This document shows, piece after piece, positions 25,281-38,263 of a stretch of DNA of 42,090 nucleotides. The DNA comes from Candidatus Pacearchaeota archaeon (lineage in GTDB: Archaea; Nanobdellota; Nanobdellia; Pacearchaeales; GW2011-AR1). Both the position numbers and the translations under genes were made by a program. Numbering within the stretch: position 1 is the stretch's first letter; each line of letters begins with the position of its first letter. The notes under the pieces are model-generated. The model searched no databases. It had not been told where the DNA came from and saw only the letters and a list, made by a program, of their open reading frames with translations. The DNA lies in the NCBI GenBank assembly GCA_009694755.1, contig SICU01000002.1, forward strand, positions 1 through 42,090. The letters run 5' to 3'.

Positions 25281-25303
25281 ATTTCTATTATCAAAACAAG
25301 GTT

Positions 25304-25311
25304 TTTAAATA
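25304..25311. promoter_or_regulatory. near-palindromic TATA-like box (TTTAAATA / TATTTAAA) between the divergent secY and VIT-like genes
   Basis: It begins 24 nt upstream of the secY ATG (25280) and ends 36 nt upstream of the VIT ATG (25347). Confidence 0.3.
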
Positions 25312-25346
25312 TTAACCAATATCTACTTTTAAAGAACGAATTTAAA

Positions 25347-25847
25347 ATGGCTATTAAAAAAAACAAAATATCTCTAAAACAAAAATCTTACGGCGGAGCA
25401 ATAGTTTTAGGATTAAACGATGCATTAGTTGAATTGTCGGGTGCATTAGTTGGTTTAACTTTTGCTATAAACAGTTCAAGATTAATTGCAACAGTTGGAT
25501 TAATCACGGGTTTCGCAGCTGCTCTTTCAATGGCTTCTTCAGAATATCTATCGGCAAAAGAAGAGAATCATAAAAAACCAGTCGTTTTAGCAACATACAC
25601 TGGAATTACTTATTTATTAACTGTATTAATTCTCGTATCCCCTTATTTATTTTTAACAAACAAATATTCGGCAACAGCAGTAATGGGGATTTTAGCAGTG
25701 AGTATTATCGCAATTTACACAAAATATTCCGCTTCAATTCACAAAAAAAGTTTCAAAAAGAAATTCTTAGAAATGTTCACAATTTCCGTAAGCATTGCAG
25801 TAATTAGTTTTGTATTCGGGCTTCTTGTTAGAAGAATTATTGTTTAA
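25347..25847 (+). CDS. VIT1/CCC1-family (DUF125) membrane protein, minimal form
   Basis: GGAIVLGLNDALVELSGALVGLT ... AAALSMASSEYLSAKEE is the VIT family signature. The ATG at 25347 is preferred over 25254 because the longer ORF overlaps the secY start. Confidence 0.65.
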   Translation: MAIKKNKISLKQKSYGGAIVLGLNDALVELSGALVGLTFAINSSRLIATVGLITGFAAALSMASSEYLSAKEENHKKPVVLATYTGITYLLTVLILVSPYLFLTNKYSATAVMGILAVSIIAIYTKYSASIHKKSFKKKFLEMFTISVSIAVISFVFGLLVRRIIV

Positions 25848-25921
25848 AATAAAACTTACTCACAATAAAATTCAGTCAGAAACAAAAAGTCAAAATATCA
25901 AATATCTTTGAAAATACAAAA

Positions 25922-26371
25922 TTATTTATCTTCTTTAACAATAATTTCTCCGCCCTGTTTTTTCACAGAAGCGATTGCACTTTCAGATGCAGAATGTGCA
26001 TGAATAATTAATTTAACATTTTTAGTCAGCTCTCCAACTACTTTATGTTTAAGAATTGAAATGTCATATTTTCCAGCAGATTCTTTTGCAACTTTTTTTG
26101 AAACTAAAGAGCTCATCGAAATATTTGTCAAATTAAATGTTTCAGGTTTTGGTTTTCCAAATCTTAATTTTCTAGCACGCTTACCAAAATAATCTGGAAG
26201 AGTATTCTTCAAAATCATTGTTTTTTTCTGGTCTCCTCTTTTTCCTGTTCCAGCCATACCTACTCCGCCACGATGTCCGCTTCCTCTAGCTTTCTTTTTG
26301 AATCCTCTTCCGTGCGTATGACTTCCTCTAAATCTTCTAGACCTTCTACGTTTTTTCATTTTCATCGGCAT
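25922..26371 (-). CDS. rpl15: 50S ribosomal protein L15 (uL15)
   Basis: RRSRRFRGSHTHGRGFKKKARGSGHRGGVGMAG, in the expected operon position. Confidence 0.93.
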   Translation of the reverse strand: MPMKMKKRRRSRRFRGSHTHGRGFKKKARGSGHRGGVGMAGTGKRGDQKKTMILKNTLPDYFGKRARKLRFGKPKPETFNLTNISMSSLVSKKVAKESAGKYDISILKHKVVGELTKNVKLIIHAHSASESAIASVKKQGGEIIVKEDK

Positions 26372-26562
26372 TAGTCGTCGTCTCCCCAGCTTTTACTGCG
26401 AATTTCATTCATTAAATTTTCACCAGTCAATTCATCAAGTTGGTCTTCATCAGCTTCAATAAAACTATCGGCAGAATCACACTTAAGACATTCAGCAGGA
26501 GGCAATTTTCCATAAGCAATAGCACCACAATTACATTCCCAAGCTACTTTTGATTTGTTCAT
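26371..26562 (-). CDS. acidic zinc-ribbon/rubredoxin-like small protein of unknown function
   Basis: 63 aa with the Cys pattern C10-x-C12 ... C25-x2-C28 (WECNCGAIAYGKLPPAECLKCD). By my count it has 15 Asp/Glu against 6 Lys/Arg and ends in DDD. The start overlaps the L30 stop (ATGA, 26559-26562) and the stop overlaps the L15 start (TAATG, 26369-26373). Confidence 0.6.
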   Translation of the reverse strand: MNKSKVAWECNCGAIAYGKLPPAECLKCDSADSFIEADEDQLDELTGENLMNEIRSKSWGDDD

Positions 26563-26978
26563 AACATTCTCTCCAATAATTTATTTATATGTTCTTTGTT
26601 GTCAGCAAGAACTCCCTTACCAACTCCAAAATGTTTTTTACTTTCAATTCCGCCACGAGGTGGGTGTAATCTGAAAAATGGTTTCAATCCTAAATCTGCA
26701 TAAGACTTTTTCCCAAGATTAGAAATAACTTCAGACACATCAATTTTTTTCTTTGAATCTACAGGTTGAGCTCGAAGAGTTATAAGTTTCAATAATCTTT
26801 CTTTATCAATTGTTCCATACGCAACATAACTTCTAACTTTTTGAAGTAATTTTAAATTCTCTGCGTTTTCTTCAACAAGAATTGCCGCGTATTTACGTCT
26901 CAATCTCATATGGTCAAGTGTCGCTTGGATTTTATCAGGGATTTCAACCATTCCAGCAATACGAATTACGATAATCAT
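26559..26978 (-). CDS. rpl30: 50S ribosomal protein L30 (uL30)
   Basis: MIIVIRIAGMVEIPDKIQATLDHMRLRRKYAAILV. The ATG at 26978 overlaps the S5 stop as ATGA; the longer tracked ORF (27014) would run 40 nt into the S5 CDS instead of forming the ATGA junction. Confidence 0.9.
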   Translation of the reverse strand: MIIVIRIAGMVEIPDKIQATLDHMRLRRKYAAILVEENAENLKLLQKVRSYVAYGTIDKERLLKLITLRAQPVDSKKKIDVSEVISNLGKKSYADLGLKPFFRLHPPRGGIESKKHFGVGKGVLADNKEHINKLLERML

Positions 26979-27715
26979 AATAACTTCCCCGATTGTTTCA
27001 AAGCAGCCATACAAGCGCCAGCAGAGTTGATAGTTGTTCTTCCTTGTCCTTGAGTGTAAGAATAAATATCTCTTATTCCAGCCAATCTCAAAATCTTTTT
27101 ACATTCATCTCCAATTACAAGTCCAGTTCCTTGAGGTGCAGGAATAAGTCGAATTCTTACGCTCCCACATCTTCCTTCAACTGTATGAGGGATGCTGTGG
27201 GGTTCTTTGCAAGAGCAGTCAAAATGCCCACATCCTCTTTTTACACTAATAATTTGTAGTTTCGCACGACGAATTGCTTTTTCTCTCGAAGGCAAAGTTT
27301 CTTTTGATTTTCCTAATCCAACACCAACGTGTCCATTTCTATCTCCAATAATAGCCATAGATGAAAAAGTTAAAACATTTCCTTCCATAGTTTTTTTCTG
27401 AGTTTGTCTCCATGCTCTTCTTTTTCCACCACCAAATTTACCTTTGGATTGTCCAACTAATAATAAATCTTTTTCAACAGAAATTAAACTATCTACAATT
27501 TCTGATTCAAGAATTTTTTTATGATTAGTAAGAACTTCATCGATAGATTTAATTCGCCCACTTTTTACATCTTTTCCAAGTTGAGTTTTAGGATTCCAAG
27601 AAGAAACAGTATCTTGTTTTACTGGTTCAACTTTAATTTCTACTTCCGGAACCAAAGGTGTTTCAGCGTATTCATCTTTAGCTTCTTCAACAGATTTCAT
27701 AATTTTCAATGTCAT
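26975..27715 (-). CDS. rps5: 30S ribosomal protein S5 (uS5)
   Basis: GGGKRRAWRQTQKKTMEGNVLTFSSMAIIGDRNGHVGVGLGKSKE and RLIPAPQGTGLV. Confidence 0.95.
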   Translation of the reverse strand: MTLKIMKSVEEAKDEYAETPLVPEVEIKVEPVKQDTVSSWNPKTQLGKDVKSGRIKSIDEVLTNHKKILESEIVDSLISVEKDLLLVGQSKGKFGGGKRRAWRQTQKKTMEGNVLTFSSMAIIGDRNGHVGVGLGKSKETLPSREKAIRRAKLQIISVKRGCGHFDCSCKEPHSIPHTVEGRCGSVRIRLIPAPQGTGLVIGDECKKILRLAGIRDIYSYTQGQGRTTINSAGACMAALKQSGKLL

Positions 27716-27789
27716 TGTTTAAGTTTTCCTCCTTGATTTATGGAAAATTTAAGCTTGAAAATATTATTTTCAGTATTTTGTATTTTCAT
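27712..27789 (-). CDS. intercistronic mini-ORF C (25 codons, MKIQNTENNIFKLKFSINQGGKLKQ) bridging L18 and S5
   Basis: Hand translation of the minus strand. The ATG overlaps the L18 TGA (ATGA, 27786-27789) and the TGA overlaps the S5 ATG (ATGA, 27712-27715). GGAGG lies inside its 3' end. Whether it is translated is unknown. Confidence 0.3.
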   Translation of the reverse strand: MKIQNTENNIFKLKFSINQGGKLKQ

Positions 27790-27804
27790 TGTTTAAGTTT
27801 TCCT
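27712..27804. repeat. 19-nt direct repeat (tcattgtttaagttttcct) at 27712-27730 and 27786-27804 flanking a 55-nt insert
   Basis: Read directly from the sequence. The repeat unit is the L18-stop/next-start junction (AGGAAAACTTAAACAATGA on the coding strand). Confidence 0.9.
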
Positions 27805-28274
27805 TTAATTTGATTAATAAGTTTTGCGGTTTCAGGTTTTTTATTTAATTGAGTTTCATCCGGCATAACGTCTTCTTTGCAAGGAATATCGAATCCTGCA
27901 TCTTTCAAACCTTTCACGAAAGCATAAGTTCGAGATTTAGGAACGTGTCTTATCAAACCCAAATCTAAAATTCCAGATTTAATATTTTTAGATTTATTAA
28001 CGAGCAAATATCCTAACAAATAAGCAGCAGGCAAACTTTTCAAACTTCCCTTTAATTTATCAGGCCATCCGTGATTTAGCAAATCTTTAGTGCTTACATT
28101 ACAAACTACTTTATCTTGTGCAATTTCAGAAACAACAATTTGCGCTAAAAGATATCTATTTGTTTTTCTAAATACTACTCGAGGTTTTTCAGAAGTCAAC
28201 AAATAAAGTCTCGCTTTATAGTCAGTTCTAGCTTCATATCTTCTTCGTCTTACTGTTCTTTGTACGCCTTTCAT
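27786..28274 (-). CDS. rpl18: 50S ribosomal protein L18 (uL18)
   Basis: RRRRYEARTDYKARLYLL ... PRVVFRKTNRYLLAQIV, in the expected operon position. Confidence 0.93.
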   Translation of the reverse strand: MKGVQRTVRRRRYEARTDYKARLYLLTSEKPRVVFRKTNRYLLAQIVVSEIAQDKVVCNVSTKDLLNHGWPDKLKGSLKSLPAAYLLGYLLVNKSKNIKSGILDLGLIRHVPKSRTYAFVKGLKDAGFDIPCKEDVMPDETQLNKKPETAKLINQIKGKLKQ

Positions 28275-28336
28275 TTTAGTTCTCCCAAATTTGAAAATGA
28301 AAGATTAAAAATTCCGATAATTTTTTGTTCTTTCAT
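28271..28336 (-). CDS. intercistronic mini-ORF A (21 codons, MKEQKIIGIFNLSFSNLGELK) bridging L19e and L18
   Basis: The ATG overlaps the L19e TGA (28333-28336) and the TGA overlaps the L18 ATG (28271-28274). Its sequence is identical to mini-ORF B. Confidence 0.3.
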   Translation of the reverse strand: MKEQKIIGIFNLSFSNLGELK

Positions 28337-28339
28337 TTT
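28294..28339 (-). promoter_or_regulatory. predicted RNA hairpin inside repeat copy A, covering the upstream stop and mini-ORF start
   Basis: There are 11 bp (28294-28304 with 28329-28339), a 2x3 internal loop, 7 bp (28307-28313 with 28319-25) and a 5-nt loop (ccgat on the plus strand). Pairing was checked by hand. Confidence 0.4.
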
Positions 28340-28767
28340 AGTTCTCCAGATTTTTTAATTTTTCCTTTTTTCATTGTCTCAATATGCTCTTTCAAATGAG
28401 CTTTACTTTTGAAATTTTTACTTCTAATTTCCTTTCTTAATTTCATAAATTCTTCATTTGTAATTTTTGATTGTTTACGCATTTCAGAAATATATGCTCT
28501 TGATTTTCTTGTGATTATCATATATTCTCGTTTACGATTATTTGGTTTCATACGAATACTTCCAGCACGGCGTCTTTTTCTCACAGTATTGACTTTTCTT
28601 CCTTTAATTTCTCTAATAAATATTGCTTTATCAGAAACTAAATCTCTTATGTCTTGCTTAGTAATTGCTTCTTTTATATCGTCAAGTCGTTGAGTGTTAA
28701 ACATTACCCTTCCTTCTCCAATACCTAAAGTTCTTGCAACTAACGATTTCTTTTTACTTAGATCCAT
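28333..28767 (-). CDS. rpl19e: 50S ribosomal protein L19e (eL19)
   Basis: LSKKKSLVARTLGIGEGRVMF ... IRKRRRAGSIRMKP. The ATG at 28767 is preceded by GGAGG with a 5-nt spacer, so it is preferred over the ATG at 28782. The last 8 codons (IKKSGELK) lie inside the 93-bp repeat. Confidence 0.9.
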   Translation of the reverse strand: MDLSKKKSLVARTLGIGEGRVMFNTQRLDDIKEAITKQDIRDLVSDKAIFIREIKGRKVNTVRKRRRAGSIRMKPNNRKREYMIITRKSRAYISEMRKQSKITNEEFMKLRKEIRSKNFKSKAHLKEHIETMKKGKIKKSGELK

Positions 28768-29110
28768 GTTTTCCTCCGACATTTAAAATAGTCAAATTCA
28801 TTTCTTGAGCTCTCTTTATAAATTCGATTTTTTTCTTAGCACCAATTCTACGAGAGATAATTAAAATATTTTCTTTAGTCGCATTAGAAAAATCTTTAGA
28901 TGTTGAAATTAACAACGGCATTTTTCCATTTATTTTTCCAGATTCTTCTCTCGGAGATTTGAAACCAATTCGAGGAGATTTAGTATAACCAAATCTATTT
29001 TTTCTAATTTTGTTATGTCTTCCTACTGCGGCTCTCCATTTTTGAAGTTTAGGTCTGTTTCTACCGAGCTTACTCAATTTCACAGTATTTCTTCTTACAA
29101 ATTGTTTCAT
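28754..29110 (-). CDS. rpl32e: 50S ribosomal protein L32e (eL32)
   Basis: KQFVRRNTVKLSKLGRNRPKLQKWRAAVGRHNKIR. There is an ATGA overlap with the L6 stop. Confidence 0.9.
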   Translation of the reverse strand: MKQFVRRNTVKLSKLGRNRPKLQKWRAAVGRHNKIRKNRFGYTKSPRIGFKSPREESGKINGKMPLLISTSKDFSNATKENILIISRRIGAKKKIEFIKRAQEMNLTILNVGGKHGSK

Positions 29111-29649
29111 AGAATTACCTCTGGTTTTTTAGTTATAAAAATTCCATCTTGGAAAATACGTCTATCTTTATTTCTAACACGAGATGCCGTTTCTAAATTA
29201 GCGGCAGTTTGCCCAGCACTTTCAATATTCGCACTTATAATTTTAATTTTACTACCTTCAACTTTAATTTCTACATCTGCTAATATCTTAGCAACTCTCG
29301 GTACTTTTTCACCAAGAAAATTATTAATCACAAATTTTGAACCTTCAATTTTAACAGTGATAGGAAAATGAACATTACAAATTTCAAGCTCGTAAACAAA
29401 TCGTTCATTCAATCCTAAAAATATATTTTTGATGTGAGCAACTTGAGAAAGTATTTTAGAAATTTCTTTTTTATTTGCTTTGTTCGAAGATAAAATCAAT
29501 TCGTTTCCAGAAACTTCAAATTTAACATTCGGTAAAACAATTACTCTGTTTGTTTGAGTTCCCCCTTTAGAACAATTAATATTATTTTCAGAAATCTTAC
29601 AATTTATTCCCGAAGGAATTGCTAAACGAGTTTCAAAAGTTTTTTTCAT
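29107..29649 (-). CDS. rpl6: 50S ribosomal protein L6 (uL6)
   Basis: 180 aa with a two-domain L6 pattern (VEIKVEGSKIKIISAN...ETASRVRNKDRRIFQDGIFI). GGAGG lies 9 nt upstream of the ATG. Confidence 0.9.
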   Translation of the reverse strand: MKKTFETRLAIPSGINCKISENNINCSKGGTQTNRVIVLPNVKFEVSGNELILSSNKANKKEISKILSQVAHIKNIFLGLNERFVYELEICNVHFPITVKIEGSKFVINNFLGEKVPRVAKILADVEIKVEGSKIKIISANIESAGQTAANLETASRVRNKDRRIFQDGIFITKKPEVIL

Positions 29650-29650
29650 G

Positions 29651-29803
29651 TCAATGTGCCTCCGGAAAACTCATTTTTAAAGATTTGGCACTTTGAGCAC
29701 AAGAAATTTTTTCATCTTGACAAATTTCTGTGCAACAAATTCTATTAGAAAATAATTTGTTTGCATACAAAAAACTACGGATAAATCTAAAAGTTTTTTT
29801 CAT
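29651..29803 (-). CDS. intercistronic mini-ORF D (50 codons, MKKTFRFIRSFLYANKLFSNRICCTEICQDEKISCAQSAKSLKMSFPEAH) bridging S8 and L6
   Basis: Hand translation. The ATG begins 1 nt after the S8 TAA (TAACATG) and the TGA ends 1 nt before the L6 ATG (TGACATG). The first 5 residues equal the L6 N-terminus. It has four Cys and falls below the ORF-track length cut-off. Confidence 0.3.
   Translation of the reverse strand: MKKTFRFIRSFLYANKLFSNRICCTEICQDEKISCAQSAKSLKMSFPEAH
29697..29733 (-). promoter_or_regulatory. predicted RNA hairpin inside the S8/L6 insert
   Basis: gcacaagaaattt (29697-29709) pairs with aaatttctgtgc (29722-29733). That gives 12 bp with one bulged nucleotide and a 12-nt loop, checked by hand. 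Confidence 0.4.
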
Positions 29804-29804
29804 G

Positions 29805-30179
29805 TTAATAAAAGTAAGCGACTACGCATCCTCCAAGTCCTTTATCAATAGCTGTTTGATGAGTCATAAGTCCTTCATTTGTAGAAATTACAACTATTCC
29901 CAAATTTCTCGAAGGTAAATATCTTCTTACATATTTATCAATTTCATAAGTTTTAACAACATAGCGAGGTTTGACAGATTTACACACATTAACTTTTCCA
30001 AATGTAATCTCTAATCCTTTCGGAGTATTATGATAACTTTCAATGTATCCCTTTAATTTTCCAATTGCAAGAATTTGACTTAAAAATTTAGACTGCTGTT
30101 TCAAAGTCACGCTATTCTTGCTAGCACGTTTAGCATTCATAATTCTATTCAAACCATCTGAAACTATATCTTGGCTCAT
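29805..30179 (-). CDS. rps8: 30S ribosomal protein S8 (uS8)
   Basis: DIVSDGLNRIMNAKRA ... VISTNEGLMTHQTAIDKGLGGCVVAYFY. Confidence 0.93.
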   Translation of the reverse strand: MSQDIVSDGLNRIMNAKRASKNSVTLKQQSKFLSQILAIGKLKGYIESYHNTPKGLEITFGKVNVCKSVKPRYVVKTYEIDKYVRRYLPSRNLGIVVISTNEGLMTHQTAIDKGLGGCVVAYFY

Positions 30180-30410
30180 TTAACTGTATTTTTTAAATCC
30201 GAGATCCTCCGCAATCTCTCGGAAACAATGTCTGCACAAGTGCAAATCATATTGGTGTAAATGTGCTCCAAATCTTCCGCAACGTTTACATTTTTGAGCA
30301 GCGATACCCGTTTTACGTTCTTTAGGTTTATTAAATCTCAAAAACTTTTTAGCAATAACTGGTTTATTCTTCAATTGTTTCAAAATCTTTTGCCAATCAC
30401 TTGCTGTCAT
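30180..30410 (-). CDS. rps14: 30S ribosomal protein S14 type Z (uS14), with N-terminal extension
   Basis: [36 protein letters not shown] is the zinc knuckle. The ATGA overlap with the L5 stop supports the long 76-aa form. Confidence 0.88.
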
Positions 30411-30919
30411 GCTCTTACTCCTGTTTTGAAATTGCTTTTCATAAATTCCATAATTTCTTCACGAGTAACATGTTGTTTAGCTGGGACTCTTCCAGTTTTT
30501 ATTTTTCGTCTTTTAACTCGAACACCAGCACGTTCAAAAACAACAGTAACATTAAATCCCCTTATTCCAATTTCTCTAATATATTTCATTCCAGGGATGT
30601 TAATATATTCATTAATTCCAAATGAGAAATTATTTTTATCAATTTGACTTTCCTTAAGTTGATTGTCTATTGCACCAAGAAGTTTTCTTAAAATTTCAAT
30701 AGCTGCTTTACCTCTCAAAGTAACACAAGTTCCTAATTCCATTTTAGGTCTAACACCGAATGCAGGAATTCTTGTTCGAGAACCAGCCTTTGTAATTTGA
30801 GCTTTTCTTTCAGAAATCATTTCAAGTAATTTTTTAGCTTTTTCAAGTTCTTTATCTACGGCACCAGCGCTCAATACAACACGAACAAGTTTAGGAGTTC
30901 TCATAATATTAGAATTCAT
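30407..30919 (-). CDS. rpl5: 50S ribosomal protein L5 (uL5)
   Basis: [15 protein letters not shown] ... [16 protein letters not shown] ... GFNVTVV. Confidence 0.93.
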
Positions 30920-31539
30920 TGAATCATAATTTGTGCTTTCTGCAACACAACTTCCTCCGTTTGTCCTTTAATCAATAAATTAACATTTTTACCCAAAACT
31001 TCTATAATCTTTCCAGTTTTTCCAATATTTTTTCCTGAAATCACTAAACCATTTTTTCCTTTTTCAAAAGCTATATGTTTTTTAATTTTATTATCAAAAT
31101 CAAGAAAAACTGTATCTCCAACATTAATTTTTTCTTTAGAAATTAAACTAGTTCCGTCATGTAGGCCATATTGAATTTTTTTATCTTTCACAGCATTTTT
31201 TCCAATAACTCTTACAGGTCTTGAATTTTCTTTTGTGTCTTCAAAAGCAAATCTTCCAGTCGGCAAAATTACAAGTTGATAATTTTTATCTGCATAAAAT
31301 ATCGAAAATAAATTAATTGGTTGATTTAACTCTGTAACAAGTTGCCCATTAATTTTTAATAATTTATTGTGAATCATATATTTCCCTTCTTTAGAATTTG
31401 AAGCAATTTTAAGCATATCTCTTATAGCAATGATTACTGGAACAGCATTAGAATTATTTCTCGACGCATAAGCTACATATTTTGAGCCTTTTCTTGCTAG
31501 GGGCAAGCCCCTTATAATTTCATTTCGTGTTTGGTGCAT
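30916..31539 (-). CDS. rps4e: 30S ribosomal protein S4e (eS4)
   Basis: 207 aa. The S4-like, KOW and C-terminal pattern (VIIAIRDMLKIASNSKEGKYMIHNKLLKINGQ...) sits between L24 and L5. GGAGG lies 9 nt upstream of the ATG. Confidence 0.88.
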   Translation of the reverse strand: MHQTRNEIIRGLPLARKGSKYVAYASRNNSNAVPVIIAIRDMLKIASNSKEGKYMIHNKLLKINGQLVTELNQPINLFSIFYADKNYQLVILPTGRFAFEDTKENSRPVRVIGKNAVKDKKIQYGLHDGTSLISKEKINVGDTVFLDFDNKIKKHIAFEKGKNGLVISGKNIGKTGKIIEVLGKNVNLLIKGQTEEVVLQKAQIMIQ

Positions 31540-31945
31540 TGGTTTTTTCCTCCGATTTCTTCGACTCGTTTTTGTCTGAACTTTTCAAACGTCGCGAGTC
31601 ATCGAGCTTCAACGCGATTATTTGTAATTTACTCGGATCAAAATACACATTGATTTTTGTTCCATCGGATTTTTTCCGAGTTACTCCTTCAATCGTGACT
31701 TTTAATTTTTTGACATTAACGTCTAAAATTTTTCCTTTCTGTTTCGCAAATGTTCCTCGTTTGATGATGACTTCATCACCAACTCTCAATGGAATGCTTC
31801 GCATTTTATGCTTAGCACGCAGTTCTTTTGATAAATTAGCACTTAAAAAGCTATGCCTTATATGGAACGGAGCTTCAAATCTATATTTGCGTTGCTTTCT
31901 TGGTTGAACACTTGATATCCACGACGTAGAAAATTTGGATTTCAT
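31520..31945 (-). CDS. rpl24: 50S ribosomal protein L24 (uL24)
   Basis: The KOW motif is IPLRVGDEVIIKRGTFAKQKGKILDV. The ATG at 31945 overlaps the L14 stop as ATGA; the longer tracked ORF begins inside L14. Confidence 0.9.
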   Translation of the reverse strand: MKSKFSTSWISSVQPRKQRKYRFEAPFHIRHSFLSANLSKELRAKHKMRSIPLRVGDEVIIKRGTFAKQKGKILDVNVKKLKVTIEGVTRKKSDGTKINVYFDPSKLQIIALKLDDSRRLKSSDKNESKKSEEKTNAPNTK

Positions 31946-32343
31946 AATACAAATTGCGCAATTTTTGCGACTCCCTTCCATCTTTCAAAAACTTCTTTCG
32001 AAACAGGACCCTTAACTTGAGTTCCCTTCGGGTTACCTTTATCATCTTTAAGTAACGCAACAGCATTATCTTCAAACATAACTCTTTCACCAGTATTTCT
32101 TTTGTAAGGTTTTCTTTGACGAATAACAATCGCATCAAATACTTGTCCTTTCATATCTGGTTTTCCAGCACGAACTGAAACTTTAACCATATCAGCCATC
32201 TTAACATATTGTTGAGTTCCCTTCGGAGTTTTACCTTTTTTAACTCCACAAATTCTTACAAGTCTCGCACCACTATTATCGCTCGCAACTACGACGCTCC
32301 CTAAATTTAATCCTCTCGTTGCTCTTGCTGGAATTGCTTTCAT
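31942..32343 (-). CDS. rpl14: 50S ribosomal protein L14 (uL14)
   Basis: LNLGSVVVASDNSGARLVRICGVKKG ... AIVIRQRKPYKR. Confidence 0.95.
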   Translation of the reverse strand: MKAIPARATRGLNLGSVVVASDNSGARLVRICGVKKGKTPKGTQQYVKMADMVKVSVRAGKPDMKGQVFDAIVIRQRKPYKRNTGERVMFEDNAVALLKDDKGNPKGTQVKGPVSKEVFERWKGVAKIAQFVL

Positions 32344-32405
32344 TTTAGTTCTCCCAAATTTGAAAATGAAAGATTAAAAATTCCGATAATTTTTTGTTCT
32401 TTCAT
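32340..32405 (-). CDS. intercistronic mini-ORF B (21 codons, identical to mini-ORF A) bridging S17 and L14
   Basis: The ATG overlaps the S17 TGA (32402-32405) and the TGA overlaps the L14 ATG (32340-32343). Confidence 0.3.
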   Translation of the reverse strand: MKEQKIIGIFNLSFSNLGELK

Positions 32406-32408
32406 TTT
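32363..32408 (-). promoter_or_regulatory. predicted RNA hairpin inside repeat copy B (same as 28294-28339)
   Basis: The sequence is identical to copy A, offset by 4069 nt. Confidence 0.4.
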
Positions 32409-32710
32409 AGTTCTCCAGATTTTTTAATTATTTCAATAACAACTGAATGAATCATTTTACTCAAAGGTCTACATTCTTGAACTTTAACATAATCTCCAAT
32501 ATTAATAACCACACCTTCAGGAATTCTCGAATGTAATTTTGTTTTTTTACGCATAAATCTTTCATATTTTTGAACCTTCACAGTACGTTCGAATTCAATT
32601 ACTGCTCTTTGTCCGAAAATTTTAGTAACGGTTCCCTGAAAACTTCTTCCTCGAGTTCCAACTACAAAATTCTGTGCATTTCGCTGTGTTTCTATTTGTT
32701 TTTCTATCAT
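32402..32710 (-). CDS. rps17: 30S ribosomal protein S17 (uS17)
   Basis: GRSFQGTVTKIFGQRAVIEFERTVKVQKYERFMRKKTKLHSRIPEG...GDYVKVQECRPLSK. The last 8 codons (IKKSGELK) lie in the 93-bp repeat. Confidence 0.92.
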   Translation of the reverse strand: MIEKQIETQRNAQNFVVGTRGRSFQGTVTKIFGQRAVIEFERTVKVQKYERFMRKKTKLHSRIPEGVVINIGDYVKVQECRPLSKMIHSVVIEIIKKSGELK

Positions 32711-32744
32711 GTTGTTTTTTCATCACCTATTCTTTTCGCAATTC

Positions 32745-33044
32745 TCAATCTTCAATAGTTTCGTCGGAGAAACCTAATTTTACAAGCACTGCGCGTACTT
32801 GTCTTTTATGGTCTCCTTGCAATTCTACTGTTCTATCTCGAATTGTTCCACCGCAGGCAAGCTTATCTTTCAAAGATTTAGCCGTCGCTTTTAAGTCGAT
32901 ACTTTTATCAAAGCCCGACACAAGCGTGGTAACCTTCCCGTAACGACGTTTTTCCGTCGATACTTTTATCTTTTGCTCACTTTTCGCCAAGTCTTCCCAG
33001 GCGATTGCGGAAACAGGTAATCCCGTTCTTGGATCTATTTCCAT
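32745..33044 (-). CDS. translation initiation factor aSUI1 (eIF1/YciH family)
   Basis: KVSTEKRRYGKVTTLVSGFD ... KSLKDKLACGGTIRDRTVELQGDHKRQVRAVLVKLGF. It lies in the usual archaeal slot between L29 and S17. Confidence 0.9.
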   Translation of the reverse strand: MEIDPRTGLPVSAIAWEDLAKSEQKIKVSTEKRRYGKVTTLVSGFDKSIDLKATAKSLKDKLACGGTIRDRTVELQGDHKRQVRAVLVKLGFSDETIED

Positions 33045-33047
33045 AGT

Positions 33048-33251
33048 TTATTTTTTCTTCAATGTACCGAATTTTTCCGACGCATTGAATGTGAATATTC
33101 TCGCAATAGCCTTTTTAATCTCTTTGGTTTTGCCTTTCGCTTTTTGTGCAGTTACAGACGACTTTACTAATTCCATTTTTAAATCTTTAAGTTTTTCTGC
33201 TCTTGATTTAGCGTCCATCTTGGAAACATCCTTTGCTCTTAAAATCGCCAT
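33048..33251 (-). CDS. rpl29: 50S ribosomal protein L29 (uL29)
   Basis: MAILRAKDVSKMDAKSRAEKLKDLKMELVK. There is a TAATG overlap with S3. Confidence 0.9.
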   Translation of the reverse strand: MAILRAKDVSKMDAKSRAEKLKDLKMELVKSSVTAQKAKGKTKEIKKAIARIFTFNASEKFGTLKKK

Positions 33252-33934
33252 TAAATATTACTCTCCTTTTTACGAGATTTTTTCTTTTCAACAGGAATAA
33301 CTTTCAGTTCATTTATTTTTTTCTTTATTTTATTTATCATATCTTCATTTACAATAATTTGATCGTGAATGTGTGCGTCCGGTGGTAAAATGCTTACTTT
33401 AATTCCTACGACTCCCATGTTAGTAACTGCTTGCGCTTGTGCTTTTTTAACAACTTTGGAAGGCTCTCCAGTTTTCTTCAAATAACCTTGAGTAAATCTC
33501 CAAGTCTTCGCTCTTTCACTTGGAAGTTTTCCTGATAAAACTAATTCTGCACCCAACGCTCCTGAATTCATAATGCTACTCAAAGATTTATATGCGATAG
33601 TTTTGAATTTCAAAGAACCCTTTTGTTCTATTTGTATCGCAACACTATCTGCAACAAGTTGAGAATCAAGAGATTGCATAATAATTTCTTTTATATCAAT
33701 ATGAGGATTATCCATTTTAAATTTCTTTTTTAAAATTGTAGTAAGCTCTTGTATTTTTTCGCCCCTATGTCCAATTACAAGTCCAGGCCTATTCGTGGAA
33801 ACAATAATTTTTTCTCCGATTGGAGTATATTCAATATTTACATCGCTAATTCTTCCTTTACCGAGCGATTGCTTAACATATTCTTTAATTCCCAATTCGT
33901 CTTGTTTAAATTTTACAAACTTTTTTTCTTCCAT
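33251..33934 (-). CDS. rps3: 30S ribosomal protein S3 (uS3)
   Basis: The KH domain is VSTNRPGLVIGHRGEKIQELTTILKKKF, together with GAELVLSGKLPSERAKTWRFTQGYL. Confidence 0.95.
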   Translation of the reverse strand: MEEKKFVKFKQDELGIKEYVKQSLGKGRISDVNIEYTPIGEKIIVSTNRPGLVIGHRGEKIQELTTILKKKFKMDNPHIDIKEIIMQSLDSQLVADSVAIQIEQKGSLKFKTIAYKSLSSIMNSGALGAELVLSGKLPSERAKTWRFTQGYLKKTGEPSKVVKKAQAQAVTNMGVVGIKVSILPPDAHIHDQIIVNEDMINKIKKKINELKVIPVEKKKSRKKESNI

Positions 33935-33935
33935 T

Positions 33936-34466
33936 TTATTTTTTCCCTACCTCTTTCGCTTCAAGGATGATATATGCTCTTTTTCCTTTTTCTCCGCCTC
34001 TTCTTCTAGGTCGTGGAGCCAAGTTAGCCGACGCAGTCGTGATTCTTGTTTTACTCAAGTCTAAACCATTAACAAGAACATTCCCTTTTAAAGTTTTCAA
34101 CATAGGAATAAACAAACTAATAGCACTAAGAGGATATCTTCCAGACATCATTCCTTTACCTTTTCTATGAGGAATTTCTCCCTTAAACGGAACTGCTCTC
34201 TTAAACAATTTAACTTGCTCAAGGTCAGCCATCGCTTTGTCAATAGATTTTCCTTTAATGAAAGCGCAAACATACATTCCGTGTCTCTTTGACATGTGAA
34301 GTCCTGGTCCTCTTGCAACCGCAACATCTTTTTTAGTCATTGATTTTGATTGTTTCTTTTCAACGATTTCTTTTTTAACATTTTCAGTTTTGTGTTCTTG
34401 TTTAACATCGGCAGAGCTAGGTGTTTCAGTTTTTTTCTCTTCAACGTGTTTATGTATTTCTGTCAT
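33936..34466 (-). CDS. rpl22: 50S ribosomal protein L22 (uL22) with charged N-terminal extension
   Basis: AVARGPGLHMSKRHGMYVCAFIKGKSIDKAMADLEQV ... YIILEAKE. A Lys/Glu-rich extension of about 45 aa precedes the conserved core. Confidence 0.9.
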   Translation of the reverse strand: MTEIHKHVEEKKTETPSSADVKQEHKTENVKKEIVEKKQSKSMTKKDVAVARGPGLHMSKRHGMYVCAFIKGKSIDKAMADLEQVKLFKRAVPFKGEIPHRKGKGMMSGRYPLSAISLFIPMLKTLKGNVLVNGLDLSKTRITTASANLAPRPRRRGGEKGKRAYIILEAKEVGKK

Positions 34467-34874
34467 TTACTTCTTAGCCGCCTTTGAACCTCTCGTAGCA
34501 CCGATACCAGCAGCAGAGTGATTAACTTTTTGTCTTGTCAACGCAAATTCTCCGAGTCTATGTCCAATCATTTCCATTTCAACTTTCAAATTTTCAAAAC
34601 TTTTTCCATTGTAAACTGCAATTTCCATTCCAATCATTTTAGGAATAATTATCAAATCTCTCAAATGTGTTCTGATTTTTTTCTTTCTTGAAATCTTTTC
34701 TTCTGCAGACTTTATAAATTTTTCAACAAATTCAGGATGTCTAAGAAGAGAACGTCTACTTCTTGCAGGCATATATTTCAAAGAGTCTCTCAATGACAAA
34801 GATTGCAATTGCTCCACACTCAATCCACAGAACTTTTTCTCTTTCGATTTGATAACTACATCTTGTACAACCAT
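34467..34874 (-). CDS. rps19: 30S ribosomal protein S19 (uS19)
   Basis: THLRDLIIIPKMIGMEIAVYNGKSFENLKVEMEMIGHRLGEFALTR. Confidence 0.95.
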   Translation of the reverse strand: MVVQDVVIKSKEKKFCGLSVEQLQSLSLRDSLKYMPARSRRSLLRHPEFVEKFIKSAEEKISRKKKIRTHLRDLIIIPKMIGMEIAVYNGKSFENLKVEMEMIGHRLGEFALTRQKVNHSAAGIGATRGSKAAKK

Positions 34875-37513: not shown

Positions 37514-37675
37514 ATTCCATTTTGTTTATGGTGCAACTCTTCCAAATTTATTAATGTCAAAGTACTTGAACGGCACTTTGAACATTCAAAAACAAATTTT
37601 TACTTTGTTTTTTAATGTTGACATGTAGCAACACGCAACATTTGATTCCTACATTTATATTTTAGAAAATGAGTA

Positions 37676-37709
37676 TATAAATCTTCGCCCCAAATATTGA
37701 AGATTTATA
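37676..37709. repeat. 11-bp inverted repeat (tataaatcttc / gaagatttata) with 12-nt loop
   Basis: Hand-checked pairing of 37676-37686 with 37699-37709. One arm contains a TTTATATA (minus strand) TATA-like box. Confidence 0.7.
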
Positions 37710-37731
37710 CTTAACAACATCAGTTGGCATT

Positions 37732-37768
37732 GTTTAAACTTTGCTCTATATTTTTGCAAAGTTTAAAC
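37732..37768. repeat. perfect 13-bp inverted repeat (gtttaaactttgc / gcaaagtttaaac) with 11-nt loop
   Basis: Hand-checked pairing of 37732-37744 with 37756-37768. Confidence 0.8.
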
Positions 37769-38201: not shown

Positions 38202-38263
38202 AATACCTCCAACAATAAATAAACTTAAGAATATTTAAAGTTATATTAAAATTTATATTAAAA

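What the first reader, a model, noticed from the sequence alone, without database searches (positions are those of the whole stretch)
27712..32429. Recurrent architecture: four intercistronic inserts in one ribosomal protein operon, all bounded by duplicated stop/start junctions and all kept as coupled bridging mini-ORFs, possibly one element family
Seen in sequence: at S17/L14, S8/L6, L19e/L18 and L18/S5 the native junction is present twice (18, 17, 18 and 19 nt). Between the copies lies a 44-137 nt insert. In every case the reading frame opened by the first junction ATG runs without a stop to a stop codon at, or 1 nt before, the second junction start.

The 21-codon and 25-codon peptides resemble each other: both begin MK, IFNLSFS matches IFKLKFS, and G-x-LK lies near the C-terminus. 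Their DNA cores match at 16 of 21 positions (ATTTTTAATCTTTCATTTTCA against ATTTTCAAGCTTAAATTTTCC). All the other junctions in the operon are 0-4 nt overlaps or gaps.

Inference, three alternatives:
- A miniature mobile element family that targets stop/start junctions and is tolerated because it restores coupling.
- Repeated tandem duplications of junctions, maintained open by selection.
- Genuine micropeptide genes or regulatory leader-like cistrons that tune stoichiometry within the operon.

I am not aware of a described equivalent in archaeal ribosomal protein operons.
Basis: partly seen in the sequence, partly recalled or inferred. Interest (0 to 1): 0.85.

Follow-up and report, generated by a model that had tools for sequence, protein, structure and literature searches.

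The report
Mobile relay mini-cistrons at gene junctions
Short repeated DNA inserts sit exactly between neighbouring ribosomal-protein genes of a tiny (Pacearchaeota-like) archaeon, each kept as a small translatable bridge that can pass ribosomes from one gene to the next. They differ between near-identical strains and resemble much larger, apparently undescribed families found at gene starts across this archaeal group.

Summary
On the minus strand, S17/L14, S8/L6, L19e/L18 and L18/S5 each carry a 44-137 nt insert. Each is flanked by 17-19 nt copies of the stop/start junction and filled by one open, correctly phased mini-ORF.

- **Two inserts are one element.** The S17/L14 and L19e/L18 inserts share a 93/93 nt identical block.
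- **The inserts turn over.** A strain 97-99.5% identical (L179) lacks the L19e/L18 copy, has a 66-nt shorter S8/L6 insert, and carries three further inserts that the window lacks.
- **Relatives have homologues** at other junctions and outside the operon.
- **The pattern is clade-wide.** 37 of 54 operons carry bridged inserts. One ~58-nt family ('KAN') has at least 130 metagenome copies; 90% end in an ATGA overlap with a start codon.
- **Shared design.** An AUG without its own Shine-Dalgarno, an internal arm complementary to the junction, an embedded Shine-Dalgarno, and a stop overlapping or abutting the next start.
- **Constraint is on nucleotides**, not on the peptide.

Best reading: self-propagating inserts that land on start codons and survive because they relay translation, like a natural bicistronic design. 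Expression and the spreading mechanism are untested. I found no prior description.

The parts
32337..32429 (-). Element A, copy 1, at S17/L14. This is a 93-nt block identical to 28268-28360. It holds the S17 tail (IKKSGELK), junction copy 1, the 44-nt insert, junction copy 2 and the L14 start.
   Evidence: The same copy is present in the near-identical strain L179.
32340..32405 (-). Mini-ORF A1: MKEQKIIGIFNLSFSNLGELK*. Its ATG overlaps the S17 stop (ATGA). Its TGA overlaps the L14 ATG.
32363..32373 (-). Anti-start arm of A1, TCTTTCATTTT. It is a perfect 11-nt complement of the junction AAAATGAAAGA. Together with an inner 7-bp stem it forms a hairpin of -11 kcal/mol.
28268..28360 (-). Element A, copy 2, at L19e/L18. 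It is absent from strains L179 and L001, whose junction reads GGAGAACTAAAATAAAATGAAAGG. The window's L19e tail (ATT...TCT) matches the window's S17 tail rather than the L19e tail of L179/L001.
28271..28336 (-). Mini-ORF A2, identical to A1 (21 aa). It is coupled by ATGA overlaps to the L19e stop and the L18 start.
29635..29805 (-). Element B at S8/L6. 17-nt junction copies lie at 29789-29805 and 29635-29651. The 50-aa mini-ORF is 29651-29803, the anti-start arm GTAGTTTTTTGTATG is 29764-29778, and the Shine-Dalgarno GGAGG lies within 29656-29665.
   Evidence: Homologous inserts sit at S8/L6 in L179 and L182.
29699..29764 (-). A nested, in-frame 66-nt insertion inside B. It forms two hairpins (-14.7 kcal/mol) and is absent from strain L179, whose B mini-ORF is 28 aa.
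27712..27804 (-). Element C at L18/S5. 19-nt junction copies lie at 27786-27804 and 27712-27730. The 25-aa mini-ORF is 27712-27789 and the anti-start arm TATTTTCA is 27756-27763. A second arm, TTTTCCAT (27740-27747), is complementary to an S3-type start (ATGGAAAA). The Shine-Dalgarno GGAGG lies within 27726-27734.
   Evidence: Orthologous copies exist in L179 (open, 23 aa) and L001. C is related to element D at L22/S3 in L179 and L180.

Best explanation
The four inserts are copies of short, repeated, self-propagating 'relay mini-cistrons'. They land exactly on a gene's start codon and persist because they hand ribosomes on.

**How it works**
1. The element's first AUG sits where the original start was, so it has no Shine-Dalgarno of its own. 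It receives the ribosome that terminates on the upstream gene (termination-reinitiation at an ATGA or near-abutting junction).
2. In related families the first AUG can instead be the 5'-terminal AUG of a leaderless mRNA.
3. The 20-50 codon frame is kept free of stops.
4. A Shine-Dalgarno lies in its last codons. The spacer to the next ATG is 7 nt in A, 9 nt in B and 12 nt in C.
5. Its stop overlaps, or lies 1 nt before, the real gene's ATG. A second reinitiation then launches the downstream ribosomal protein.
6. An internal arm complementary to the junction can pair with either junction copy. This hides the start codons unless a ribosome is passing, so downstream translation stays tied to upstream translation.

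**How it spreads**
Copying is from junction to junction by recombination or template switching at the shared (A)AATGA(AA) sequence. Loss is by deletion.

**Status of the steps**
- Shown: the anatomy, strain-level gain and loss, the family relationships, clade-wide enrichment of the open coupled state, and complementarity and covariation of the arms.
- Inferred: translation of the mini-ORFs, the gating role of the hairpins, and the copying mechanism.
For: **Anatomy and phasing.**

**Turnover**
- L179 is 97-99.5% identical in DNA to the window.
- It has A1, a B that is 66 nt shorter, and C.
- It lacks A2.
- It carries A'+D at L22/S3 and E at L5/S14, which the window lacks.
- L001 also lacks A2.
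- Relatives at 75-84% L18 identity have none of the four inserts.

**Copy event**
- A1 and A2 are 93/93 identical.
- The window's L19e tail carries the S17-type bases ATT...TCT. L179 and L001 have CTT...TCG.

**Families**
- A model built only from L179 copies hits A at E = 2e-5.
- An A-type copy lies between SecY and an EMC3-like gene in L004/L005.
- D sits at L22/S3 in L179 and L180.
- B has a homologue in L182.
- E occurs at three different junctions, once nested and once as a 9-codon remnant.

**Clade-wide survey**
- 37 of 54 operons carry bridged inserts.
- Bridging is 54% against 18.5% in shuffles for short gaps.
- It is 70% against 0.3% for long gaps.

**KAN family**
- At least 130 copies were found.
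- 117 end in ATGA on a start codon, and 96 are followed by an ORF of at least 40 aa.
- About 45 lie in the S10/spc operon.
- Others precede L7Ae, L10, RNA polymerase, PolD and other genes.

**Anti-start arm**
- The longest stem with the element's own junction averages 6.45 bp, against 4.79 for shuffled interiors (p = 7e-8).
- Against junctions from other genomes it averages 5.86 (p = 0.006).
- Perfect arms of 11-12 bp track the local junction sequence: ATGAAAG with CTTTCAT, ATGGAAG with CTTCCAT.
- The KAN hairpin that pairs TCATT with the downstream AATGA shows covariation. Pair 43:59 is AU in 16 sequences, UA in 16 and UG in 1, with none broken. No shuffle out of 500 reaches the observed score.

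**Nucleotide rather than peptide constraint.**

**Leaderless context.** KAN copies with no upstream ORF have a TATA-like motif peaking at -30 to -26 from the mini-ORF ATG. The rate is 0.49 per sequence, against 0.11 or less in other bins.

**Established knowledge**
- About 20 nt of untranslated spacer almost abolishes termination-reinitiation coupling in archaea and bacteria (PMC10666635).
- A leader cistron with an embedded ribosome-binding site and a stop overlapping the next start couples translation in synthetic bicistronic designs (PMC6302717).
Against: - There are no expression or ribosome-profiling data, so translation of the mini-ORFs is inferred.
- No transposase or integrase appears among the top-ranked Pfam families for the window's other ORFs. 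The copying mechanism is unknown.
- The exact core of A has no match in JGI metagenomes or viral contigs. Genome-wide copy number in this organism is therefore unknown.
- A alone is weak evidence against chance (P = 0.41).
- The A-C and A-KAN links are marginal (E = 0.14-0.5). B has no relative outside its own junction.
- D keeps its perfect arm at the same junction across relatives with about 82% L18 identity. The hairpins also covary. Both observations could mean a host function rather than a merely tolerated passenger.
- Enrichment next to housekeeping genes fits a regulon equally well.
- 21 of 78 short gaps are unbridged.
- The C copy in L001 is broken by a 2-nt indel, although that contig has only 2x coverage.
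Confidence: 0.6

Rival explanations
1. The inserts are host-selected cis-regulatory modules. On this view they are relay or attenuator hairpins that tune or synchronise translation of ribosomal and other housekeeping genes. They would not be selfish passengers, and the repeated families would form a regulon read by a common factor or by ribosome flux.
For: - Covarying hairpins hide the downstream start and expose the Shine-Dalgarno in the loop.
- The arms match the local junction.
- D is conserved with its arm at L22/S3 in L179 and L180.
- KAN copies are enriched at ribosomal-protein, RNA polymerase and DNA polymerase genes.
- The TATA-like motif sits at a fixed distance from the mini-ORF ATG.
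Against: - Presence or absence differs between strains 97-99.5% identical at four junctions.
- Relatives at 75-84% L18 identity do without any of the four inserts.
- Tandem arrays, nested copies and head-plus-tail remnants exist.
- The same gene pair is served by different families in different genomes.
- This reading is compatible with the best explanation as a later domestication.
Confidence: 0.2
2. Each insert arose on the spot by tandem duplication of the local junction (the tail of the upstream gene plus the head of the downstream gene). It then diverged. There is no element family and no movement.
For: - Every insert begins with the downstream gene's first bases and ends with the upstream gene's last bases.
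- The end of the C mini-ORF (INQGGKLKQ) resembles the L18 tail (INQIKGKLKQ). Its start (MKIQ, or MKTQ in relatives) resembles the S5 start in relatives (MKTK).
- Tandem KAN arrays exist.
Against: - The interior of A is unrelated to the L14/L18 heads or the S17/L19e tails.
- A has homologues at L22/S3 in L179 and between SecY and an EMC3-like gene in L004.
- C is homologous to D at another junction. C also carries an arm complementary to an S3-type start.
- KAN copies share about 32 conserved bases at many unrelated genes.
Confidence: 0.07
3. The inserts are classical non-autonomous transposons, of MITE or IS200/IS605-derived hairpin type. An enzyme encoded elsewhere in the genome would move them, with ATGA as the target.
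For: - The elements are dispersed and multi-copy, strictly oriented, carry hairpins and show nesting.
- The insertion point is precise.
Against: - The inverted repeat joins the junction to an internal arm. It does not join the two termini.
- The flanking repeats vary from 5 to 19 nt instead of being a fixed-length target duplication.
- The A2 copy carried flanking gene sequence with it.
- No transposase appears among the top-ranked Pfam families for the window's other ORFs.
Confidence: 0.08
4. The inserts are genuine micropeptide genes. The 21-50 aa products would themselves be functional.
For: - The frames are open, begin with MK and have recurring motifs (FSF, G-x-LK).
Against: - In KAN, the unconstrained third-codon positions 6 and 24 are about 95% A, while first and second positions of other codons vary freely.
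- The Shine-Dalgarno is read in different frames in different copies (RR or GG).
- The FSF motif is the reverse complement of AAATGAAA.
- Mini-ORF lengths differ between strains (28 or 50 aa for B).
- Strains 97-99.5% identical carry different sets of these inserts.
Confidence: 0.03
5. The inserts are an assembly or binning artefact, or are small RNA genes that merely happen to lie between the cistrons.
For: - The repeats are identical and come from a metagenome assembly.
- The predicted structures are hairpin-rich.
Against: - The five contigs read that carry the identical L18 protein show the same spacing in their gene tables.
- An independent NCBI MAG carries A1, B and C.
- Every copy is in frame.
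- There is no Rfam match at gathering or relaxed thresholds.
- All copies are in the sense orientation and kept open.
Confidence: 0.02

Closest known systems
Synthetic bicistronic design (BCD) translation-initiation elements (Mutalik et al. 2013, as described in PMC6302717)
   Same: - A short leader cistron of about 16-20 codons.
- The ribosome-binding site of the real gene is embedded in the leader's last codons.
- The leader's stop overlaps the gene's start (ATGA or TAATG).
- The translating ribosome melts local structure and re-initiates.
   Different: - BCDs are engineered single parts whose first cistron has its own ribosome-binding site.
- The elements here are natural, repeated and polymorphic.
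- Their first AUG has no Shine-Dalgarno. It is fed by an upstream terminating ribosome or, in KAN, apparently by leaderless initiation.
- They also carry an arm complementary to the junction.
[quoted passage not shown] 2023, PMC10666635)
   Same: - The same junction types (ATGA, TAATG) occur at both ends of every mini-ORF.
- This explains why an untranslated 44-137 nt spacer would break coupling while a bridging ORF would not.
   Different: - The known cases are direct gene-gene overlaps.
- Here a dispensable extra cistron is interposed, so two reinitiation events occur in series.
Rickettsia palindromic elements (RPE) (from my own knowledge: Ogata et al. 2000)
   Same: - Small palindromic repeats.
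- They spread within a reduced genome.
- They are tolerated because they keep a reading frame open.
   Different: - RPEs insert inside protein-coding genes and become part of the protein.
- The elements here sit between cistrons, or at the first codon, and form their own cistron.
- There is no sequence relationship.
MITEs, REP/BIME, ERIC and Correia-type small intergenic repeats (review PMC10969869 seen in a literature listing; details from my own knowledge)
   Same: - Short, non-coding-sized, multi-copy and hairpin-forming.
- Often located within operons.
- Present or absent between strains.
   Different: - Those families have terminal inverted repeats, fixed target duplications or RAYT partners. 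They are not constrained to be open reading frames or to sit on start codons.
- None of those defining features is met here.
Regulatory leader peptides and uORFs (ermCL, tnaC, mgtL-type) (from my own knowledge)
   Same: - A short upstream ORF whose translation controls access to the downstream start through alternative hairpins.
   Different: - Those are gene-specific, often peptide-specific, and are not dispersed repeat families.
- Here the constraint is on nucleotides, and the same unit precedes dozens of unrelated genes.
Translational-bypass 'byp' inserts of yeast mitochondria and T4 gene 60 (from my own knowledge)
   Same: - Short inserts flanked by matching sequences.
- They are neutralised at the level of translation.
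   Different: - Those inserts are skipped by ribosome hopping within one ORF.
- Here the insert is read through as a separate cistron between two ORFs.

Membership tests
MITE (miniature inverted-repeat transposable element) | Inverted repeats at the two termini of the element | tested here: not met
   The inverted repeat joins the first junction to an internal arm (A: AAAATGAAAGA with TCTTTCATTTT, 32363-32373). The 3' end is a Shine-Dalgarno plus a direct copy of the junction.
MITE (miniature inverted-repeat transposable element) | Target-site duplication of fixed length | tested here: not met
   The flanking repeats are 18, 17 and 19 nt in the window, 12 and 5 nt in L179, 18 nt for D in L180, and mostly 5-12 nt across the clade.
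MITE (miniature inverted-repeat transposable element) | A related autonomous IS or transposase in the genome | not testable with these tools
   Only 42 kb of this genome is available. No transposase family appears among the 25 of 46 Pfam families displayed for the window's other ORFs.
REP/BIME with RAYT, or IS200/IS605-derived hairpin elements | Extragenic palindrome recognised by a Y1/HUH transposase, inserted 3' of a fixed tetra- or pentanucleotide without duplication | tested here: inconclusive
   Hairpins are present and insertion is always at (A)ATGA. However, a junction duplication is present, the A2 copy carried flanking gene sequence, and no enzyme could be sought.
Bicistronic-design-like leader cistron (functional architecture, not ancestry) | A short leader ORF, the downstream ribosome-binding site inside it, and a stop overlapping or abutting the downstream start | tested here: met
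   - A: GGAG, a 7-nt spacer, then an ATGA overlap.
- B: GGAGG, a 9-nt spacer, stop 1 nt before the ATG.
- C: GGAGG, a 12-nt spacer, then an ATGA overlap.
- KAN: 117 of 130 copies end in an ATGA overlap.
Bicistronic-design-like leader cistron (functional architecture, not ancestry) | The leader is translated and the downstream gene depends on that translation | not testable with these tools
   This needs Ribo-seq or reporter assays. Indirect support comes from enrichment of the open frame and TATA-like motifs placing the KAN AUG at the likely transcript 5' end.
Local tandem duplication of the junction | The insert interior derives from the flanking gene head and tail and has no copies elsewhere | tested here: not met
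   Homologues of A and of C/D lie at other junctions and outside the operon. Only the ends of C resemble its flanks.
Conserved micropeptide or peptide-dependent leader | Codon-like substitution pattern (third positions freest) and a conserved peptide | tested here: not met
   In KAN, free third positions 6 and 24 are 94-95% A, while first and second positions elsewhere have entropy of 0.9-1.5 bits. The Shine-Dalgarno is read in different frames in different copies.
Any curated RNA family (Rfam 15), including C/D-box sRNAs and ribosomal-protein leaders | A covariance-model match at the gathering score | tested here: not met
   There are no gathering-level hits in the window. Only sub-threshold chance hits appear elsewhere in the window, L036 and L179.
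KAN family (defined here) | Core ATGAAAGCAAAT-N5-ATTTTCATTCATTCG followed by a Shine-Dalgarno and AAATGA | tested here: inconclusive
   A aligns end to end with the KAN profile, but only at E = 0.14 (7.7 bits). B and C are not detected. A's tail, GGGAGAACTAAAATGA, resembles a KAN sub-family tail, GGGAGAACTGAAATGA.

The most novel reading that the evidence does not exclude
Pacearchaeota/Woesearchaeota-type DPANN archaea harbour a previously undescribed class of genetic element. These are start-codon-targeting, self-copying mini-cistrons in several families (A, C/D, B, E, KAN), with probably thousands of copies in metagenomes.

- They insert on stop/start junctions and on the 5'-terminal AUG of leaderless mRNAs.
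- They carry their own Shine-Dalgarno and anti-start hairpins.
- They act as obligatory translation relays, a natural and mobile counterpart of the synthetic bicistronic design.
- They seem to spread without a transposase, by template switching or gene conversion at ATGA microhomology.
- They may seed the many small novel ORFs found wedged into these archaea's ribosomal-protein operons.
Probability: 0.4. Interest if true: 0.9.

Novelty: new variant of a known kind. Interest (0 to 1): 0.8.

Why it matters
**A new way for selfish DNA to persist.** If correct, selfish or semi-domesticated DNA can live in the most constrained part of a minimal genome. It does so between tightly coupled ribosomal-protein genes by imitating the host's own stop/start junction and passing the ribosome on.

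**A natural test of coupling rules in archaea.** The inserts provide a naturally replicated experiment on two points:
- how far, and through what, termination-reinitiation can be relayed;
- whether leaderless initiation can feed a Shine-Dalgarno-dependent downstream start.

**Practical uses**
- It explains unannotated 50-150 nt 'gaps' in DPANN operons.
- It warns gene callers and phylogenomic pipelines that ribosomal-protein tails can be overwritten by junction exchange.
- It offers ready-made insulating leader cassettes for archaeal synthetic biology.

**Possible link to gene birth.** The same junctions in relatives hold 66-160 aa ORFs of unknown function. The elements may therefore bear on how new genes arise inside operons.

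Tried and rejected
- **Rfam.** Scans of the window, L036 and L179 found nothing relevant.
- **Exact 24-mer of A.** It has no hits in JGI metagenomes or viral contigs, so copy number outside the operon is unknown.
- **First direction of the A copy event.** I first inferred L19e/L18 to S17/L14, because the 'GELK' tail of S17 differs from that of relatives. I reversed this once L179 showed A1 without A2 and diagnostic bases in the L19e tail.
- **L179's junction as an excision footprint.** Relative to the window it is a 57-nt difference with only 1 nt of microhomology. It is not the 62-nt deletion the 18-nt repeats would give. It is more simply the uninserted state.
- **Concerted evolution of the two C junction copies.** The C/T pattern differs among the three strains (C,C; C,T; T,T), so no firm conclusion is possible.
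- **Within-genome versus between-genome similarity of KAN tails.** The result was mixed and I make no claim.
- **Translational bypassing and archaeal bulge-helix-bulge (BHB) introns.** I considered both and dropped them. Both junction copies carry a stop, so hopping or splicing would create nothing new. No bulge-helix-bulge was apparent in the predicted folds, though I ran no dedicated search.
- **Other co-directional gaps in the window.** The gaps at 5270-5316, 21166-21232, 37513-37836 and 38201-38264 have stops in all frames and no bridging ORF.
- **B and its nested 66-nt piece.** Neither has a relative in the 1.27 Mb of fetched loci apart from L179. The L182 homologue was fetched later and recognised by eye.
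- **Literature.** Three searches found no description of such elements.

Full report
**What is in the window.** The region is the S10/spc-type ribosomal-protein operon of a Pacearchaeota-like DPANN archaeon. The closest L18 proteins in public data are named Pacearchaeota or Nanoarchaeota. The operon lies on the minus strand and runs L3-L4-L23-L2-S19-L22-S3-L29-SUI1-S17-L14-L24-S4e-L5-S14-S8-L6-L32e-L19e-L18-S5-L30-(63-aa zinc-ribbon ORF)-L15, followed by SecY.

Most junctions are overlaps or gaps of -4 to +3 nt. The exceptions are a 34-nt SUI1/S17 gap and overlaps of 20 nt (L24/S4e) and 14 nt (L32e/L19e).

A 17-19 nt stretch spanning the upstream stop and the downstream start occurs twice, with 44, 137, 44 and 55 nt in between. 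One ORF runs from the first ATG to a stop that overlaps the second ATG or lies 1 nt before it. The repeat periods (62, 154, 74 nt) give the required phase.

Blocks 32337-32429 and 28268-28360 are identical at 93 of 93 positions, including the last eight codons of S17 and L19e. The window therefore holds three independent inserts (A, B, C), not four.

I kept the junction ends fixed and shuffled the interiors while preserving dinucleotides. The probability of 'open and ending on the next start' is then 0.41 for A, 0.024 for B and 0.14 for C. Tails such as CTAAAATGA carry stops in two of three frames, and the interiors are poor in TA and TG. The joint value is about 1e-3.

The comparative data settle the matter. 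I modelled the operon in 54 related loci plus the window.
- Of 78 gaps of 40-120 nt, 42 are filled by a chain of coupled ORFs, against 18.5% in shuffles.
- A further 15 are N-terminal extensions of the downstream gene.
- Nine of the 21 unbridged gaps are the SUI1/S17 spacer.
- Of 63 gaps of 120-500 nt, 44 are bridged, against 0.3% in shuffles.

An assembly artefact is excluded. The five contigs read that carry the identical L18 protein, summarised as two places of sample ERZ1305449, show the same gene spacing. An independent NCBI MAG also carries A1, B and C.

**Turnover between near-identical strains.** L179 (GCA_964733665.1) is 97-99.5% identical in DNA to window 24193-34628. It differs at these junctions:
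- It has A at S17/L14 but not at L19e/L18.
- Its B is 66 nt shorter. The window therefore has a nested, in-frame insertion at 29699-29764 made of two hairpins, and the mini-ORF is 28 aa in L179 against 50 aa in the window.
- Its C is open but diverged (23 aa).
- It has a 127-nt insert at L22/S3 holding two tandem mini-ORFs: A' (MEIIKINIFKFSFSIGELK) and D (MKTKKTNNYFLASILYNLGGMQ).
- It has a 172-nt insert, E, at L5/S14.
- The window has plain junctions at both of those last sites.

L001 has 98% L18 identity and is nearly identical to L179. It also lacks A at L19e/L18. Relatives with 75-84% L18 identity have none of the four inserts.

**One copy event can be read from the sequence.**
- In L179 and L001 the L19e tail is CTTAAAAAATCG and the junction is GGAGAACTAAAATAAAATGAAAGG.
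- In the window the L19e tail is ATTAAAAAATCT.
- That is exactly the window's S17 tail, and it is followed by the full A unit.

This fits conversion of the L19e/L18 junction by the S17/L14 copy. The homology arms already existed there: about 22 nt on the left and about 12 nt on the right.

Mismatch density between the window and L179 is about 5% from the nested B insertion to A2 (29731-28332). Elsewhere it is about 1%. This recombination mosaic has edges that coincide with the window-specific inserts.

**Families.**
- A profile built only from L179's A', C and D finds the window's A copies at E = 2e-5 and 7e-5.
- A five-copy profile finds a further member in L004/L005 between SecY and an EMC3-like gene: MKAIKIDIFKFSFSKKEGRK, with its stop overlapping the next ATG.
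- D also occurs at L22/S3 in L180, a relative with 82% L18 identity.
- B has a homologue at S8/L6 in L182 (78% L18 identity), where it carries a nested E-like piece.
- E occurs at L5/S14 (L179, L004), at S3/L29 (L182), nested in B (L182), and as a 9-codon head-plus-tail remnant.
The local alignment score has z of about 3-4. A, A', C and D do align sensibly together.

**The wider picture: the KAN family.** Many relatives carry an element of about 58 nt. Its consensus is ATGAAAGCAAATCAAAGATTTTCATTCATTCG, then 8-20 nt that include GGAGG, then TTCAAATGA. It reads as MKANQRFSFIR...K*.
- In the 52 GTDB loci it gives 22 strong hits. All are on the operon strand and all lie within the operon's coordinate range of the loci, and some genomes have up to four copies.
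- 117 copies end in an ATGA overlap with a start codon, and 96 are followed by an ORF of at least 40 aa.
- 52 copies also abut an upstream ORF. Mini-ORF lengths cluster at 16, 17 and 19 codons.
- About 45 copies lie in the S10/spc operon, mostly at L5/S14 and S17/L14.
- The rest precede L7Ae, L10, S8e, L35Ae, RNA polymerase subunits, PolD, sugar nucleotidyltransferases, ABC permeases and others.
- Tandem arrays exist: L074 has three copies with identical mini-ORFs.
- In L037 and L011 a 100-aa or 77-aa inserted ORF is followed by a KAN unit.
- The window has no canonical KAN. A aligns end to end with the KAN profile at only 7.7 bits. Its tail, GGGAGAACTAAAATGA, resembles one KAN sub-family tail.

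**Shared architecture.** Every element has the same four features.
- It starts with an ATG that replaces the original start and has no Shine-Dalgarno of its own.
- It has an internal arm complementary to the junction:
  - A: AAAATGAAAGA with TCTTTCATTTT (11 bp).
  - C: TGAAAATA with TATTTTCA.
  - B: CATGAAAAAAAC with GTTTTTTGTATG (imperfect).
  - D: ATAAAATGGAAG with CTTCCATTTTAT (12 bp).
  - KAN: AATGAAAG with TTTTCATT, plus a second TCATT.
- It has a Shine-Dalgarno 7-12 nt upstream of the next ATG.
- It has a terminal junction copy.

The arms are more than chance. Across 47 short bridging inserts, the longest perfect stem between the interior and the element's own junction averages 6.45 bp.
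- Shuffled interiors give 4.79 (p = 7e-8).
- Junctions from other genomes give 5.86 (p = 0.006).

The arms also follow the local start sequence: ATGAAAG pairs with CTTTCAT, and ATGGAAG pairs with CTTCCAT. C additionally carries TTTTCCAT, which would fit an S3-type start. That hints that C descends from a copy at L22/S3.

For 33 gap-free KAN copies, RNAalifold's consensus structure pairs the second TCATT and following bases with the bases that end in the downstream AATGA. The Shine-Dalgarno sits in the loop.
- Pair 43:59 is AU in 16 sequences, UA in 16 and UG in 1, with none broken.
- Pair 40:62 is GC in 16 and AU in 8.
- Overall 93% of cells are paired. No shuffle out of 500 reaches the observed pairing or covariation score.
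- Sliding the partners by 1-3 columns drops pairing to 32-62%.
- Relatedness of the copies means this is support, not proof.

In MFE folds of 110 unique KAN copies, the first ATG pairs with the core in 60 and the second ATG in 40.

**Peptide or nucleotide?** In 121 unique KAN copies, the third-codon positions left free by the search pattern (positions 6 and 24) are 94-95% A. Position 24 is the A of the anti-start CAT. First and second positions of other codons vary freely. The Shine-Dalgarno is read as RR in some copies and GG in others. The recurring FSF or IF-x-L-x-FS peptide motif is simply TTTTCATTT, the reverse complement of AAATGAAAA, read in frame. The constraint is therefore on the nucleic acid and on the frame being open, not on the peptide.

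**A second context.** Thirty-five KAN copies have a downstream gene but no upstream ORF. In these, a TATA-like motif peaks 30-26 nt upstream of the mini-ORF ATG. The rate is 0.49 per sequence, against 0.11 or less in every other bin and 0.02 for intercistronic copies. Archaeal TATA boxes sit about 26-27 nt upstream of the transcription start (my own knowledge). The mini-ORF AUG would then be at or near the 5' end of a leaderless mRNA. In both contexts the element's first AUG occupies a position that receives ribosomes without a Shine-Dalgarno.

**How it most likely works.** Established work shows that termination-reinitiation coupling collapses with about 20 nt of untranslated spacer (PMC10666635). 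A 44-137 nt insert at these junctions would therefore uncouple essential genes unless it is itself translated.

The inserts have the layout of a synthetic bicistronic design (PMC6302717). The proposed sequence of events is:
1. The ribosome finishing S17, S8, L19e or L18 re-initiates on the overlapping or abutting AUG.
2. It reads the mini-ORF and melts the anti-start hairpins.
3. It meets the embedded Shine-Dalgarno and terminates on the overlapping or abutting stop.
4. It re-initiates on L14, L6, L18 or S5.

The arm can pair with either junction copy. For A, the hairpin with the first junction is -11 kcal/mol, and with the second junction -6 to -7 kcal/mol. The arm would therefore suppress independent entry at the downstream start and keep expression tied to upstream translation.

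These translation steps are inferred. No expression data exist.

**How it spreads.** The spreading step is also inferred. The evidence is:
- the one traceable event, which carried flanking gene sequence;
- the variable 5-19 nt flanking repeats;
- tandem arrays, nesting and remnants;
- the absence of terminal inverted repeats.

These point to copy-choice or gene conversion at the shared (A)AATGA(AA) microhomology rather than classical transposition. An unseen enzyme is not excluded.

**Selfish or useful?** Strain-level polymorphism, and the absence of all four inserts from relatives at 75-84% L18 identity, show that the inserts are dispensable. The covarying hairpins, and D's conservation with a perfect arm across relatives at about 82% L18 identity, show that selection acts on more than an open frame. 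Some copies may be domesticated regulators. I rank 'tolerated, self-propagating relay' first (0.6) and 'host regulatory module' second (0.2). The two are not exclusive.

**Comparison with what is known.**
- Functionally, the nearest thing is the bicistronic design, together with natural -4/-1 coupled gene pairs.
- As genome parasites that survive by keeping a frame open, the nearest are Rickettsia palindromic elements.
- As short operon-borne repeats, the nearest are MITE, REP and ERIC families. Their defining features (terminal inverted repeats, fixed-length target duplications) were tested and not met.
- No Rfam family matches.
- Three literature searches found no description. That library is incomplete, so prior description cannot be excluded.

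**Caveats.**
- Gene models in relatives are homology-based and approximate.
- KAN copies were collected with a pattern that fixes 19 bases, so covariation in the first hairpin cannot be assessed.
- Only 42 kb of this genome is available.
- The C copy in L001 is interrupted by a 2-nt indel in an A-run, but that contig has only 2x coverage.

Noticed in passing
Relatives L008-L058, L182 (for example L015/L031/L050 S17/L14; L044/L048 L19e/L18; L047/L054 L14/L24; L042/L043 S17/L14): In many relatives the same ribosomal-protein junctions hold complete extra ORFs of 66-160 aa. These are coupled at -4/+1 on both sides, and some are conserved between genomes at the same junction. Of nine such ORFs tested, only one has a Pfam match (NUDIX, in L042). 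The operon appears to be a hot spot for gaining small novel genes.
   Followed up: partly
window 26371-26562 (-): A 63-aa ORF with a CxC...CxxC zinc-ribbon-like motif sits between L30 and L15, coupled by -4 and -1 overlaps. An unannotated ORF of 62-63 aa is called at the same position in L002-L004 and L179-L183. It has no Pfam match and may be an unrecognised ribosomal or ribosome-associated protein.
   Followed up: partly
window 28332-29731 versus L179: Mismatch density against the near-identical strain L179 is about 5% across L6-L32e-L19e and about 1% on either side. This looks like a recombination mosaic whose edges coincide with the nested B insertion and with A2.
   Followed up: partly
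window 37726-37775 (-), in the 322-nt spacer upstream of L3: A perfect 13-bp palindrome, GTTTAAACTTTGC...GCAAAGTTTAAAC, lies just upstream of an ATG in the presumed promoter or leader region of the operon. It gave a weak hit to the C/D element profile (E = 0.016).
   Followed up: no
window 25819-25923 versus L179 8888-9313; L002-L004 about 8307-8675: Downstream of L15, L179 has about 320 nt that the window lacks. Relatives at 83-84% L18 identity have a 98-108 aa ORF there. The window goes almost straight to the divergently oriented VIT1-like gene (25254-25847, +).
   Followed up: no
window 32745-33044 / 32402-32710: SUI1 is followed directly by S17. The RNase P protein gene (Rpp29) that separates them in many archaea (my own knowledge) is absent. 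The 34-nt SUI1/S17 spacer is the one junction left unbridged in 9 relatives.
   Followed up: no
L179 S17 and L19e tails (L179 2330-2352 and 6510-6532); window 32405-32429 and 28336-28360: S17 and L19e end with the same 22 nt (TTAAAAAATCGGGAGAACTAAAAT, encoding ...KKSGELK) in this lineage. Relatives at 83-84% L18 identity have unrelated tails. The C-termini of ribosomal proteins seem to be overwritten by junction-to-junction exchange.
   Followed up: partly
L010, L012, L017, L022, L023, L045 (several junctions): A further mini-cistron family ends in GGAG(G)ATTTTGCATAATG or GAATTTTCATAATG. The peptides end ...GDFA, ...EDFA or ...GEFS, and the stop TAA overlaps the ATG by 1 nt. Up to three copies occur per operon.
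   Followed up: no
L049 L5/S14 (114-nt gap): A KAN-type element is split by a roughly 55-nt G+C-rich internal insertion (CTGACGCCTTGGCTGAGCACC...) and still remains one open 36-codon ORF. This is another nested insertion that kept the frame.
   Followed up: no
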